DNA of 64,000 nt from Escherichia coli (GTDB lineage: Bacteria > Pseudomonadota > Gammaproteobacteria > Enterobacterales > Enterobacteriaceae): assembly GCF_003018255.1 (NCBI RefSeq), contig NZ_CP027440.1. One strand, 5' to 3'. Positions 4,975 to 54,700 of this stretch are shown in pieces (the first letter of the stretch is position 1; the number at the start of each line of letters is the position of its first letter). A program made the translations under genes and the position numbers. A model generated the notes under the pieces. That model did not search any database. It was given only the letters and a program-made list of their open reading frames with translations, and had not been told where the DNA came from.

Positions 4975-5605
4975 AGGTGAGGCTGTGTTTGTTGTGTTCG
5001 TTGCCGTTTTTTGCCTGATGCGACGCTAACGCGTCTTATCAGACCTACAAGTCCCGAGCACAGAACCGTAGGCCGGATAAGGCGTTCACGCCGCATCCGG
5101 CATTCAGTGCCTGATGCGACGCTGACGCGTCTTATCAGGCCTACAAGATCCGAGCACAGAACCGTAGGACGGATAAGGCGTTCACGCCGCATCCGGCATT
5201 CAGTGCCTGATGCGACGCTGACGCGTCTTATCAGGCCTACAAGATCCGAGCACAGAACCGTAGGACGGATAAGGCGTTCACGCCGCATCCGGCATTCAGT
5301 GCCTGATGCGACGCTGACGCGTCTTATCAGGCCTACAAGACCCGAGCACAGAGCCGTAGGACGGATAAGGCGTTTTACGCCGCATCCGGCATTCAGTGCC
5401 TGATGCGACGCTGACGCGTCTTATCAGGCCTACAAGATCCGAGCACAGAACCGTAGGCCGGATAAGGCGTTCACGCCGCATCCGGCATTCAGTGCCTGAT
5501 GCGACGCTGGCGCGTCTTATCAGGCCTACAAGATCCAAGCCCAGCCCCCCAGGACGGATAAGGCGTTTTACGCCGCATCCGGCAACCGTTGCCGGAACCG
5601 AAAAC
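4975..5605. repeat. REP/BIME array, about six tandem ~98-bp units of paired inverted REP elements
   Basis: Motif gcctgatgcgacgctgacgcgtcttatcaggcctacaag...ggataaggcgttcacgccgcatccggc recurs at ~5004, 5110, 5208, 5300, 5398, 5494. Confidence 0.9.
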
Positions 5606-9911: not shown

Positions 9912-9999
9912 ATCGTTACCCTTTTTCAGGCAATAGTTGGCCCTGACCGAAGCGGCCAATTTTGTTTTTGTCGTTATTTACATCGCGGTTTCGCATTCA

Positions 10000-24527: not shown

Positions 24528-24539
24528 CACGCTACCGCC
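24528..24539 (-). promoter_or_regulatory. ops element (GGCGGTAGCGTG) within the JUMPstart sequence of the cps leader; RfaH-dependent antitermination site
   Basis: Plus strand reads cacgctaccgcc, the reverse complement of the ops consensus, about 180 nt upstream of wza start in the long leader. Confidence 0.8.
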
Positions 24540-24787
24540 CCTGGCTTTTTAGCTACCAATACACTGATTTAGCTTAATTTTTAAAACCCTCTCAACATAC
24601 AGTCGTTGATGAGAAAGGGTTATTGCGGAAATTAACTTCCGAATATAAGGTGACATTATGGTAATTGAATATTGGCTCTCCAATAATGCAGGAGGAAGTG
24701 TTACAGCTAACGGAATAGCAGGCAAGGTAACAATTCGGCAATTGGCTATTTTTAAGAATTATATTAAGTGTCATTCAATATGGTTTT

Positions 24788-39971: not shown

Positions 39972-40152
39972 AAGAAATCCTTTCTTAGAGAATTATTGAG
40001 GCCCGGTATCATACCGACTGCAACAATGAAATAAGAGCAAACGAAGAAACTTTCAGAATTAGGCCCGGCGGCGCAGAAAATTTTGCTATTCGCCTCGCAA
40101 GAACGGAGAGCCGTCGATTGACACTAAGGGCGGAGTGACATAATTTCAGGAG

Positions 40153-40298
40153 TGAGGGTTAGGGAGAGGTTTCCCCCTCCCCCTGGTGTTCTTAGTAAGC
40201 CTGGAAGCTAATCACTAAGAGTATCACCAGTATGATGACGTGCTTCATCATAACCCTTTCCTTATTAAAAGCCCTCTTCTCCGGGAGAGGGTTTCCCG
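40153..40298 (+). ncRNA. sib: Sib antitoxin sRNA, repeat unit 1 (antisense to ibs unit 1)
   Basis: -35 TTGACA (40118-40123), 17-bp spacer, -10 TAATTT (40141-40146); ends at hairpin ccctct...agaggg plus TTTCCCGTTT; ends approximate. Confidence 0.6.
40192..40251 (-). CDS. ibs: Ibs type I toxin peptide, unit 1 (MMKHVIILVILLVISFQAY)
   Basis: 19-codon hydrophobic ORF fully antisense to Sib unit 1; matches recalled Ibs family pattern MMK...LLVISFPAY. Confidence 0.7.
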   Translation of the reverse strand: MMKHVIILVILLVISFQAY

Positions 40299-40487
40299 TT
40301 TCAGCGTCCCGCTGAAATCGTCGGCTTACCTCCTTTCGCCCTGAATGCAGTCTATCGCTAACGCGTGAACAAAATAGTTTCCTCTGTGATTATTGCGTAA
40401 CGACTCGCAAAGAATATTTGCTGGCAGGATCGCAGACTACAAAGCCTGCGGATTGACAATCTTATCGTGAAGGCATAATTTCAGGAG

Positions 40488-40628
40488 TGAGGGTAGAGCG
40501 GGGTTTCCCCCGCCCTGGTAGTCTTAGTAAGCTGGCCAGCTAATAACTAAGAGCACCACGATGATGAGTAGCTTCATCATGACCCTTTCCTTATTTAAGG
40601 CCCCTTCCTCGGGAGGGGCTTTCCCGTT
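40488..40628 (+). ncRNA. sib: Sib antitoxin sRNA, repeat unit 2
   Basis: -35 TTGACA (40453-40458), 17-bp spacer, -10 TAATTT (40476-40481); terminator gccccttcctcgggaggggc plus T-tract. Confidence 0.6.
40524..40580 (-). CDS. ibs: Ibs type I toxin peptide, unit 2 (MMKLLIIVVLLVISWPAY)
   Basis: 18-codon hydrophobic ORF antisense to Sib unit 2. Confidence 0.7.
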   Translation of the reverse strand: MMKLLIIVVLLVISWPAY

Positions 40629-40815
40629 TCAGCGTCCCGCTGAAATCGGCGGCCTACCTCCTTTCGCCATGCAAGCAGTCTATCGCTAACTTGCAGATAA
40701 AATAGTTTCACATGTGATTATTGCGTAACGTCTCGCAAAGAATATTTGCTGGCAGGATCGCAGACTACAAAGCCTGCGGATTGACAATCTAATTGTGAAG
40801 GCATACTTTCAGGAG

Positions 40816-40956
40816 TGAGGGTAGAGCGGGGTTTCCCCCGCCCTGGTAGTCTTAGTAAGCCGGGAAGCTTATGACTAAGAGCACCACGATGATGATCCAC
40901 TTCATCATGACCCTTTCCTTATTTAAGGCCCCTTCCTCGGGAGGGGCTTTCCCGTT
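40816..40956 (+). ncRNA. sib: Sib antitoxin sRNA, repeat unit 3
   Basis: -35 TTGACA (40781-40786), weaker -10 TACTTT (40804-40809); same terminator hairpin as unit 2. Confidence 0.55.
40852..40908 (-). CDS. ibs: Ibs type I toxin peptide, unit 3 (MMKWIIIVVLLVISFPAY)
   Basis: 18-codon hydrophobic ORF antisense to Sib unit 3. Confidence 0.7.
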   Translation of the reverse strand: MMKWIIIVVLLVISFPAY

Positions 40957-41143
40957 TCAGCGTCCCGCTGAAATCATCGGCTTACCTCCTTTCGCCCTGA
41001 ATGCAGTCTATCGCTGACTTGCGGATAAAATAGTTTCACATGTGATTATTGCGTGACGTCTCGCAAAGAATATTTGCTGGCAGGATCGCAGACTGCAAAG
41101 CCTGCGGATTGACAATCGGACCGTGAAGGCATACTTTCAGGAG

Positions 41144-41287
41144 TGAGGGTAGAGCGGGGTTTCCCCCGCCCTGGTAGTCTTAGTAAGCTGGGTAGCTAAC
41201 GACTAAGAGCACCACGATGATGAGTATCTTCATCATGACCCTTTCCTTATTTAAGGCCCCTTCCTCGGGAGGGGCTTGCCCGTTTCA
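41144..41287 (+). ncRNA. sib: Sib antitoxin sRNA, repeat unit 4
   Basis: -35 TTGACA (41109-41114), -10 TACTTT (41132-41137); terminator hairpin followed by an interrupted T-tract (cttgcccgtttc). Confidence 0.5.
41180..41236 (-). CDS. ibs: Ibs type I toxin peptide, unit 4 (MMKILIIVVLLVVSYPAY)
   Basis: 18-codon hydrophobic ORF antisense to Sib unit 4. Confidence 0.7.
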   Translation of the reverse strand: MMKILIIVVLLVVSYPAY

Positions 41288-41443
41288 GCGTCCCGCTGAA
41301 ATCGTCGGCCTACCTCCTTTTGCCCTGAATGCAGTCTATCGCTAACGCGTAGATAAAATAGTTTCCTGTGTTATTACTGGATGGGTGCTCGCAAATGTGC
41401 CCGCCATTCAGACGATTCCCGATAGTGTTTCATAATTCCTCCA

Positions 41444-54583: not shown

Positions 54584-54613
54584 GCTGCATTTATTAAGGT
54601 TATCATCCGTTTC

Positions 54614-54700
54614 GCTGAAAAACATAACCCATAAAATGCTAGCTGTACCAGGAACCACCTCCTTAGCCTGTGTAATCTCCCTTACACGGGCTTATTTTTT
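54614..54700 (+). ncRNA. cyaR: CyaR (RyeE) Hfq-dependent sRNA
   Basis: 87-nt sequence gctgaaaaacataacccataaaatgctagctgtaccaggaaccacctccttagcctgtgtaatctcccttacacgggcttatttttt matches recalled CyaR, including terminator hairpin and U-tail. Confidence 0.88.
54674..54700. other. bacteriophage P2 attB core (locI), unoccupied
   Basis: Reverse complement is AAAAAATAAGCCCGTGTAAGGGAGATT, the 27-bp P2 att core as I recall it; overlaps the CyaR terminator. Confidence 0.55.

What the first reader, a model, noticed from the sequence alone, without database searches (positions are those of the whole stretch)
40153..41287. Unit-specific sequence diversification of the Ibs peptides and Sib 5' regions
The four Ibs peptides differ at a few positions (MMKHVIILVILLVISFQAY, MMKLLIIVVLLVISWPAY, MMKWIIIVVLLVISFPAY, MMKILIIVVLLVVSYPAY). 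Unit 1 also differs from units 2-4 in the Sib 5' stem (gggttagggagaggtttccccctcccc versus gggtagagcggggtttcccccgccc), with changes on both arms that keep the palindrome. This pattern would fit each Sib repressing only its cognate ibs mRNA. The Q-for-P change in unit 1 and the W at position 15 in unit 2 fall in the otherwise conserved C-terminal SFPAY motif.
Basis: partly seen in the sequence, partly recalled or inferred. Interest (0 to 1): 0.4.

Follow-up and report, generated by a model that had tools for sequence, protein, structure and literature searches.

The report
Four-copy Sib/Ibs toxin-antitoxin array
This is the well-known sibA/sibB small-RNA/toxic-peptide locus of E. coli, here with four tandem copies instead of the two in K-12; the copies differ mainly in two hairpin loops of the antitoxin RNA, one of which is a published target-recognition site, so the finding is real but ordinary.

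Summary
Four tandem units (period 328-335 nt) lie between yegL and mdtA. Each has a Sib RNA on the + strand (Rfam SIB_RNA, 137-150 bits) and an 18-19 aa ibs ORF on the - strand, with the peptides and 5' stem sequences quoted.

The window is 100% identical to E. coli 2014C-3338, where RefSeq already annotates all four ORFs as IbsA or Ibs-family toxins. Unit 1 is K-12 IbsA, so Q16 is the canonical residue. Units 2-4 are sibB/ibsB-type paralogues, common across E. coli.

Among units 2-4, 10 of 11 variable Sib positions fall in two patches: the P5 hairpin (published recognition domain TRD1; ibs codons 12-16) and the P6 loop (codons 4-5).

Cognate-only repression is already published for K-12 (Fozo 2008, as cited by Han 2010).
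- The 5' stem (P2) is dispensable for recognition in SibC.
- TRD2 is identical in units 2-4, so non-cognate pairs keep 50-53 nt of unbroken complementarity and cross-repression is plausible.
- The F and P of "SFPAY" are among the family's most variable residues.

Already known; low interest.

The parts
40154..40297 (+). Sib unit 1 = SibA antitoxin RNA (A-type)
   Evidence: Rfam SIB_RNA, 149.5 bits. The ends are placed by homology to the annotated MG1655 sibA. It differs from K-12 SibA by one base, in the terminator.
40192..40251 (-). ibsA ORF, MMKHVIILVILLVISFQAY (19 aa)
   Evidence: Translation. Annotated as ibsA, WP_010723109.1, in the identical RefSeq record and in MG1655-like records.
40489..40624 (+). 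Sib unit 2 (SibB-type)
   Evidence: Rfam, 141 bits. The 5' end matches the first 15 nt of K-12 SibB.
40524..40580 (-). ibs unit 2 ORF, MMKLLIIVVLLVISWPAY (18 aa; K-12 IbsB has F15)
   Evidence: WP_100249772.1, Ibs family toxin. This allele, allowing at most 1 mismatch in 101 nt, is present in 697 of 5426 complete E. coli genomes.
40817..40952 (+). Sib unit 3 (SibB-type)
   Evidence: Rfam, 140.1 bits.
40852..40908 (-). ibs unit 3 ORF, MMKWIIIVVLLVISFPAY
   Evidence: WP_012767741.1. The allele is present in 1922 of 5426 genomes.
41145..41280 (+). Sib unit 4 (SibB-type); its terminator tail has T>G at 41278
   Evidence: Rfam, 137 bits.
41180..41236 (-). ibs unit 4 ORF, MMKILIIVVLLVVSYPAY
   Evidence: WP_100249771.1. 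The allele is present in 274 of 5426 genomes.
40118..40123 (+). TTGACA -35 box of the Sib promoter, unit 1 (the same box lies at 40453, 40781 and 41109 for units 2-4)
   Evidence: Read directly from the sequence. The Rfam model starts at these boxes. The promoter assignment is inferred from position. The consensus scan did not call these sites because the spacer to CATAAT is 15 nt.
40162..40181 (+).
   Evidence: RNAfold; sequences; family-wide covariation. P2 is dispensable for recognition in SibC (PMC2943612).
40530..40552 (+). TRD1-equivalent (P5 hairpin) of unit 2; the others are 40198-40220 (u1), 40858-40880 (u3) and 41186-41208 (u4). It carries 6 of the 11 sites that vary among units 2-4
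   Evidence: Mapped from SibC +46..+68 by alignment; variable sites 40533-40545.
40568..40571 (+). P6-loop variable patch of unit 2 (GTAG); TCCA at 40896-40899 (u3), GTAT at 41224-41227 (u4); the unit 1 equivalent is 40237-40242
   Evidence: Corresponds to ibs codons 4-5 and to SibC +87..+90.
40580..40598 (+). TRD2-equivalent (J1/7, antisense to the ibs start codon and Shine-Dalgarno sequence) of unit 2; 40908-40926 (u3) and 41236-41254 (u4) are identical to it; unit 1 (40251-40269) differs at 2 positions
40597..40622 (+). P7 terminator hairpin of Sib unit 2 (units 3 and 4: 40925-40950 and 41253-41278; unit 1: 40269-40294, with a different stem sequence that still pairs)
   Evidence: RNAfold; sequences.

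Best explanation
The region is the yegL-mdtA intergenic Sib/Ibs type I toxin-antitoxin locus of E. coli. K-12 has sibA/ibsA and sibB/ibsB here. This strain has one A-type unit and three B-type units, produced by tandem duplication of a 328-nt unit.

How each unit works (from the literature, not tested here): each unit transcribes a roughly 140-nt Sib RNA that is fully antisense to an mRNA of about 160 nt encoding an 18-19 aa hydrophobic toxin. Sib binds the mRNA through exposed segments: the P5 loop (TRD1, inside the ORF) and the single-stranded J1/7 segment (TRD2, over the ribosome-binding site and start codon). Binding blocks translation and leads to degradation.

Shown here: the unit-to-unit differences among the B-type copies are concentrated in two hairpin loops of Sib. 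These are P5/TRD1 (ibs codons 12-17) and the P6 loop (codons 4-5). The rest of the RNA, including TRD2, is identical. Synonymous variation is confined to the TRD1 codons, and residue 15 stays aromatic (F/W/Y). This fits variation tolerated or favoured at the RNA-recognition level under protein constraint. The loop variants are standing alleles that recombine between units and strains.

Inferred: the A-type unit is orthogonal to the B-type units, because at most 14 nt are contiguous between them. The three B-type units are distinguishable through TRD1 but probably not fully insulated, because they share TRD2.
For: Identity of the locus:
- Four Rfam SIB_RNA hits.
- 100% match to E. coli 2014C-3338, with ibsA and three 'Ibs family toxin' CDS between yegL and mdtA.
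- Synteny with the annotated MG1655 sibA/ibsA and sibB/ibsB.

Structure: RNAfold of all units gives the P1-P7 architecture described for SibC (PMC2943612).

Localised variation:
- 10 of 11 variable sites lie in 13+4 nt; 0 of 20,000 random placements reach this.
- In 31 B-type units from 13 genomes, only codons 4, 5, 12, 13, 15, 16 and 17 vary. Codons 12, 16 and 17 vary only synonymously, and codon 13 mostly so.
- Across Citrobacter, Salmonella, Kluyvera, Phytobacter and other Escherichia, entropy peaks at SibC +49-53 and +87-90, and also at +111-114.

Mechanism and specificity rules: PMC2943612 and PMC4147584.

Duplex matrices:
- The cognate TRD1 duplex is -41 to -42.5 kcal/mol, against -21 to -30.5 for non-cognate pairs within the window.
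- TRD2 is identical (-27.3) for all combinations of units 2-4.
- Full-length duplexes are about -300 for cognate pairs, -266 to -277 among units 2-4, and about -190 between unit 1 and the others.

Standing alleles and mosaicism.
Against: - Nothing here measures expression, toxicity or repression.
- The ibs promoters and mRNA ends were not located.
- TRD positions are transferred from SibC by alignment, and no B-type Sib has been dissected experimentally.
- The P6-loop patch (SibC +87-90) only touches the +90-98 element that Han et al. found to assist TRD2, so its role in discrimination is inferred.
- Clustering of variation could partly reflect strong structural constraint elsewhere on two overlapping RNAs plus an ORF, rather than selection for diversity.
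- Two of the 13 arrays contain units with identical TRD1 and TRD2 (P19_598 u2=u3; CNR85I8 u2/u4). This argues against any strict need for distinct specificities.
Confidence: 0.85

Rival explanations
1. Strict one-to-one orthogonality. Each of the four Sib RNAs represses only its own ibs mRNA, and the sequence differences, including the 5' stem, were selected to insulate the pairs.
For: - Cognate-only repression was reported for K-12 SibB-E (PMC2943612).
- TRD1 differs by 4-5 nt between any two of units 2-4, and by 3-5 nt from unit 1.
- Three changes in SibC TRD1 were among those used to retarget it to ibsD.
- The non-cognate TRD1 duplex is 12-21 kcal/mol weaker.
Against: - TRD2 is identical in units 2-4, and TRD1 and TRD2 act independently in SibC.
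- Non-cognate pairs share 50-53 contiguous nt including TRD2, analogous to the active SibD94C chimera.
- P2 is dispensable in SibC and identical in units 2-4.
- Arrays with identical or near-identical units exist.
- ibsA is already a known exception.
Confidence: 0.3
2. Neutral decay of redundant duplicates. The differences are drift after tandem duplication, with no bearing on recognition, and some copies may be on the way to becoming pseudogenes.
For: - Copy number varies from 2 to at least 5 among the arrays examined, with up to 6 B-type matches in a genome.
- An IS3 element interrupts the array in strain A23.
- Identical duplicates occur.
Against: - All four ORFs are intact, with K3 and L11 retained. 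These are the only two positions whose alanine substitution abolished Salmonella IbsA activity (preprint).
- Variation is extremely clustered (0 of 20,000).
- There are no synonymous changes in codons 6-11, against several in codons 12-17.
- The same hot spots recur across genera.
- The alleles are shared by 274-1922 genomes.
- The promoter -35 boxes and the terminators are conserved in every unit.
Confidence: 0.1
3. Protein-level diversification. The variable residues (4, 5, 15, 16) tune toxin potency or target choice, and the RNA changes are a by-product.
For: - The most variable peptide positions family-wide are 4, -4 and -3.
- C-terminal residues matter for IbsC toxicity (PMC8309996).
- Han et al. 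raise distinct functions of Ibs paralogues as a possibility.
Against: - Half of the polymorphic codons in B-type units vary only or mainly synonymously: V12 has 3 codons, P16 has 3, A17 has 2, and I13 has 2. Protein-level selection does not explain that.
- Residue 15 stays aromatic.
- In Salmonella IbsA, substitutions other than H3A and L11A kept activity.
- This is not exclusive of the RNA-level explanation.
Confidence: 0.25

Closest known systems
E. coli K-12 sibA/ibsA-sibB/ibsB locus (Ibs/Sib type I toxin-antitoxin family; Rfam RF00113; Fozo et al. 2008, Han et al. 2010)
   Same: - Same intergenic region (yegL-mdtA), same strand arrangement, and same RNA architecture (P1-P7).
- Unit 1 encodes the identical IbsA.
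- Units 2-4 are SibB-type, with P2 identical to K-12 SibB and TRD2 differing from it at one base.
- Variation sits in the published variable region TRD1.
   Different: - Four units instead of two.
- None of the three B-type peptides is identical to K-12 IbsB (MMKLLIIVVLLVISFPAY). They carry W15, W4/I5, or I4/V13/Y15.
- The three B-type units share TRD2, whereas the K-12 Sib RNAs were reported to differ in both TRD regions in every pairwise comparison (PMC2943612; the +90 to +113 stretch shared by SibA and SibE is noted there as an exception).
sibD/ibsD-sibE/ibsE tandem pair (yqiK-hldE) and sibC/ibsC
   Same: Same family, also tandemly duplicated. The discrimination rules (TRD1 and TRD2 swaps) were established on SibC and SibD.
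   Different: - A different locus and subtype: 19-aa peptides, and a different P2 and P3-P5 sequence.
- 6-10 differences from the window's units in TRD1 and 2-7 in TRD2.
Other tandemly repeated type I systems (ldr/rdl long direct repeats, zor/orz)
   Same: Short hydrophobic toxin ORFs with antisense RNA antitoxins, duplicated within a single intergenic region, with copy number varying between strains.
   Different: Unrelated sequences. In those systems the antitoxin overlaps the 5' region of the toxin mRNA, or is encoded divergently, rather than covering the whole ORF.

Membership tests
Sib antitoxin RNA (Rfam RF00113 SIB_RNA) | Covariance-model match at or above the curated gathering score | tested here: met
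   Four + strand matches of 137-149.5 bits against a gathering score of 56, each covering the full model length 1-147.
Sib antitoxin RNA | About 140-nt RNA with a P1 closing helix, 5' hairpin P2, central P3-P5 hairpin, P6 hairpin over the start codons, single-stranded J1/7 and a terminator P7 | tested here: met
   RNAfold gives the same architecture for all four units and for K-12 SibA-E. There is covariation in P2 and P4 across 64 sequences. This is predicted structure only.
Ibs type I toxin | An 18-19 aa hydrophobic ORF lying entirely inside, and antisense to, the Sib RNA, starting MMK and ending in Y | tested here: met
   Four ORFs on the - strand within the Sib coordinates. The identical RefSeq record annotates them as IbsA or Ibs family toxins.
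Ibs type I toxin | Residues needed for activity are retained (a positively charged residue 3 and Leu11 in Salmonella IbsA) | tested here: met
   K3 and L11 are present in all four peptides. The requirement comes from the preprint 10.1101/2025.05.26.656083 and is transferred by homology.
Ibs/Sib type I toxin-antitoxin system | Peptide overproduction is toxic and the cognate Sib relieves it | not testable with these tools
   Requires induction and co-transformation assays. Shown for K-12 members in the literature (PMC2943612).
Ibs/Sib: cognate-only discrimination between paralogues | Both TRD1 and TRD2 differ between any two paralogues in one genome | tested here: not met
   TRD1 differs by 3-5 nt for every pair. 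TRD2 shows 0 differences among units 2-4 and 2 differences against unit 1. Non-cognate B-type pairs share 50-53 contiguous nt.
sibA/sibB locus (positional orthology) | Located between yegL and mdtA with Sib on the mdtA strand | tested here: met

The most novel reading that the evidence does not exclude
The B-type Sib/ibs units behave as a recombining two-cassette system. P5-loop/TRD1 alleles and P6-loop alleles are shuffled among tandem units and strains, and one TRD2 is shared. An array would then be a partly cross-protecting pool of antitoxins rather than a set of insulated pairs. Diversity at the loops would be maintained by selection at the RNA level under protein constraint: synonymous variants are confined to TRD1 codons and residue 15 is always aromatic.
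Probability: 0.35. Interest if true: 0.35.

Novelty: already known. Interest (0 to 1): 0.12.

Why it matters
It matters little beyond annotation. The family, its mechanism, and the idea that variable regions give each Sib its own target were published in 2008-2010, and RefSeq already annotates these four ORFs.

The one modestly useful point is that natural arrays such as this one hold several SibB-type units with different TRD1 and P6 loops but the same TRD2. That makes them a ready-made test of whether TRD1 alone is enough to insulate paralogues in vivo, and of why copy number at this locus varies from 2 to more than 5.

Tried and rejected
- The original Fozo 2008 paper (PMC2597788) and the Fozo 2012 review (10.4161/rna.22568) are not held. 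Their results are cited only through Han 2010 and later reviews.
- The consensus promoter/terminator scan did not call the Sib promoters (15-nt spacer to CATAAT) or the Sib terminators (interrupted T-run), and gave nothing usable for the ibs promoters. The ibs mRNA ends were therefore not placed.
- My first unit-finding regular expression missed units whose Ala codon is GCA (TTAGTATGC), and it was replaced.
- My first choice of 5' ends truncated the Citrobacter sequences inside P2, and this was redone.
- Full-length duplex energies trivially favour cognate pairs. They are not informative about kinetics, because Han et al. showed that non-cognate duplexes form only after denaturation and annealing. 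I relied on the TRD segments and on contiguous complementarity instead.
- I considered whether the P2 complement could be the ibs terminator. No T-run follows it on the - strand (sequence), so I rejected this.
- The peptides are shorter than the 20-residue minimum of the protein-family scan, so no HMM test was run.
- Two paper searches, on copy-number variation and on sibA/sibB/mdtA, returned nothing on array polymorphism.
Full report
**What is there.** Window 40094-41412 is the intergenic region between yegL (- strand, ending 39971) and mdtA (+ strand). It holds four tandem repeat units with a period of 328-335 nt. Rfam SIB_RNA (RF00113) matches once per unit on the + strand at 137-149.5 bits, against a gathering score of 56.

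The region is 100% identical to E. coli 2014C-3338 (NZ_CP027452.1). RefSeq annotates the four ORFs there as ibsA (WP_010723109.1) and three 'type I toxin-antitoxin system Ibs family toxin' genes. MG1655 has two units at the same place, annotated as sibA/ibsA and sibB/ibsB. I placed the Sib RNAs by homology to those annotations: 40154-40297, 40489-40624, 40817-40952 and 41145-41280.

**What the units are.** Unit 1 is SibA/IbsA. The peptide is identical to K-12 IbsA, and the RNA differs from K-12 SibA by one terminator base. Q16 is therefore the canonical IbsA residue and not a unit-specific change. Units 2-4 are SibB-type. Their P2 is identical to K-12 SibB, their TRD2 differs from it at one base, and their ORF has 18 codons. 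None of them encodes K-12 IbsB (MMKLLIIVVLLVISFPAY) exactly.

**Where the differences lie.** Among units 2-4, only 11 of 136 Sib positions vary:
- six at 40533-40545;
- four at 40568-40571;
- one in the terminator tail.

No random placement out of 20,000 puts 10 of 11 sites into one 13-nt and one 4-nt window.

RNAfold of all units reproduces the P1-P7 architecture published for SibC. It places the first patch in the P5 apical hairpin and the second in the P6 loop. Aligned to SibC, the first patch lies inside TRD1 (+46 to +68), and the second corresponds to +87 to +90, at the edge of the +90-98 element that assists TRD2. TRD2 itself (+99 to +115, antisense to the ibs Shine-Dalgarno sequence and start codon) is identical in units 2-4 and differs at 2 positions in unit 1.

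In coding terms, the patches are ibs codons 12-16 and 4-5.

**The published mechanism.** Han et al. 2010 (PMC2943612) report the following, in part citing Fozo et al. 2008:
- Sib RNAs repress only their cognate ibs, with ibsA as an exception.
- SibC has two independent recognition domains: TRD1 (the P5 loop, targeting the ORF) and TRD2 (J1/7, targeting the translation initiation region, and needing P1 and a P6-loop element).
- Both domains lie in the variable regions of the family.
- Swapping either domain to the SibD sequence lets SibC repress ibsD.

SibC(30-141) is fully active. SibC(8-29), which is P2 alone, is inactive. The SibC26D and SibC48D chimeras, which keep the SibC 5' part, fail to repress ibsC. 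P2-loop contacts are called non-productive.

P2 is nonetheless a conserved structure. Between unit 1 and units 2-4, one pair changes on both sides (A-U to C-G) and one A.C mismatch becomes G-C. Across 64 non-redundant Sib sequences, its pairs alternate GC/AU and GC/CG, with 55-64 of 64 sequences pairing. Its role is not known. RNA stability is a guess.

**The 16 combinations.** I computed RNAduplex energies for segments and for full-length RNAs.

| Segment | Cognate (kcal/mol) | Non-cognate (kcal/mol) |
|---|---|---|
| TRD1 | -40.8 to -42.5 | -21.2 to -30.5 |
| TRD2, among units 2-4 | -27.3 | -27.3 for all nine combinations |
| TRD2, unit 1 against units 2-4 | -25.0 (unit 1) | -21.3 to -22.4 |
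| Full length | about -300 | -266 to -277 among units 2-4; -187 to -195 between unit 1 and the rest |

Contiguous complementarity is more telling. Unit 1 against units 2-4 never exceeds 14 nt. Among units 2-4, non-cognate pairs keep 50-53 uninterrupted nt from SibC-equivalent +91 to the 3' end, plus 44-47 nt at the 5' end. Han's SibD94C chimera, which keeps only SibC +94-141, still repressed ibsC, and a 25-bp TRD2 helix was enough to retarget SibC to ibsD.

By those rules, A-type and B-type units should be insulated from each other. Sib2, Sib3 and Sib4 may well cross-repress each other's mRNAs. This is a prediction and has not been shown.

**Population context.** I fetched thirteen intact E. 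coli arrays; a fourteenth locus, strain A23, has its array interrupted by IS3.
- The intact arrays have 2-5 units.
- B2-type strains (EC958, APEC E18055, strain 9, S13) lack the A-type unit.
- In the two O157-like records, the A-type unit carries a B-type 3' end.

The 31 B-type units are mosaics of a few TRD1 cassettes and three P6-loop tetranucleotides (GTAG, TCCA, GTAT). GTAG and GTAT each occur with the F, Y and W cassettes. All four combinations of two sites are therefore present, which indicates recombination or recurrence.

Codon by codon:
- Positions 1-3, 6-11, 14 and 18 are invariant.
- V12 uses three codons, P16 three, A17 two and I13 two, all synonymous except one V13.
- Residue 15 is F, Y or W.

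Synonymous change is thus confined to the TRD1 codons. This argues that the nucleotide sequence, and not only the peptide, is what varies freely or is favoured there.

The window's alleles are common. Allowing at most 1 mismatch in 101 nt, unit 2 is present in 697 of 5426 complete genomes, unit 3 in 1922, and unit 4 in 274. B-type units per genome have a median of 2 and a maximum of 6.

Two arrays argue against any strict need for distinct specificities. P19_598 has two identical adjacent units. CNR85I8 has two units that share TRD1 and TRD2 and differ by one P6-loop base.

**Wider family.** A pattern scan of species-representative genomes returned 36 loci from Citrobacter, Salmonella, Kluyvera, Phytobacter, Pseudocitrobacter and other Escherichia.
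- Column entropy peaks at SibC +49-53, +87-90 and +111-114. Subtype-level differences occur in P2 and the P3 junction.
- Among 41 distinct peptides, M1, M2, I6, L(-8), S(-5) and Y(-1) are invariant.
- Residue 4 takes ten different amino acids, residue -4 takes F/L/Y/W/S, and residue -3 takes P/Q/H/A/S/N.

All four window peptides keep K3 and L11. These are the only two positions whose alanine substitution abolished Salmonella IbsA activity in a 2025 preprint. C-terminal residues are needed for IbsC toxicity according to a review of Mok et al.. Nothing suggests these are pseudogenes.

**Verdict.** Recognition-domain variation is the published model, and the C-terminal codon changes fall in TRD1. 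Three points are wrong or overstated:
- the role proposed for the 5' stem;
- the 'conserved SFPAY' premise;
- the claim of strict one-to-one specificity, given the shared TRD2 of units 2-4.

The system is an already known and already annotated member of the Ibs/Sib family. The only mildly new angle is that natural multi-copy SibB-type arrays share TRD2 and reshuffle the loop cassettes, and I could not find this discussed in the papers held.

**Limits.**
- No expression, toxicity or repression data were available or obtainable.
- TRD coordinates are transferred from SibC by alignment.
- The ibs promoters and mRNA ends were not located.
- The population sample used for the codon analysis is 13 genomes chosen from BLAST rankings, and is not a random sample.

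Noticed in passing
window 40530-40541: The W15 allele of unit 2 makes the P5 hairpin a perfect 12-nt palindrome (AGCTGGCCAGCT). The Sib2 loop (GGCC) is then self-complementary and identical to the loop of its own ibs target. Sib2-Sib2 or ibs2-ibs2 loop kissing is conceivable.
   Followed up: no
window 41278: Sib unit 4 has G instead of T in the tail just after its terminator stem (GGGGCTTG versus GGGGCTTT in units 2 and 3). This might weaken termination or ProQ-type 3' end recognition. It is the only variable site among units 2-4 outside the two loop patches.
   Followed up: partly
L011 2243-2350 and L014 (O157-like strains FSIS11705876 and strain 117): The A-type unit in these strains is a hybrid. 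It has the IbsA ORF and the A-type 5' half, but a B-type J1/7 and terminator (AACCCTTTTCTTATTTAAGGCCCC...). This indicates recombination between A-type and B-type units, and gives SibA a different TRD2.
   Followed up: partly
L009 2575-2959 (E. coli P19_598): A five-unit array with two adjacent B-type units that have identical ORFs and flanking segments (MMKILIIVVLLVISFPAY twice), presumably a recent tandem duplication.
   Followed up: partly
L017 775-2044 (E. coli A23): An IS3-family element is inserted in the array and truncates the B-type unit. The remnant is annotated as a 14-aa hypothetical protein.
   Followed up: no
L012, L013, L015, L016 (APEC E18055, ST131 EC958, strain 9, S13): These strains have no A-type (ibsA) unit between yegL and mdtA, only two B-type units. 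The 'sibA' position is therefore not universally occupied in E. coli.
   Followed up: partly
window 40118-40266 and the other three Rfam hits: The Rfam SIB_RNA model is offset from the annotated transcripts. It begins at the -35 box, 36 nt upstream of the MG1655-annotated Sib 5' end, and stops before the terminator hairpin. Rfam coordinates should not be read as RNA ends.
   Followed up: partly
window 5071-5526 (+): Five tandem Rfam naRNA4 (RF02564) matches spaced about 96 nt apart, i.e. a REP/BIME-type repeat cluster.
   Followed up: no
window 54612-54697 (+), 24528-24566 (-), 9916-9965 (-): Rfam matches above gathering score: CyaR sRNA (100.7 bits), a JUMPstart element (57.3 bits) and an algC RNA motif (77.3 bits).
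   Followed up: no
summary lines: Five of about 9,700 SibB-type matches in complete E. coli genomes lie on plasmids rather than chromosomes.
   Followed up: no
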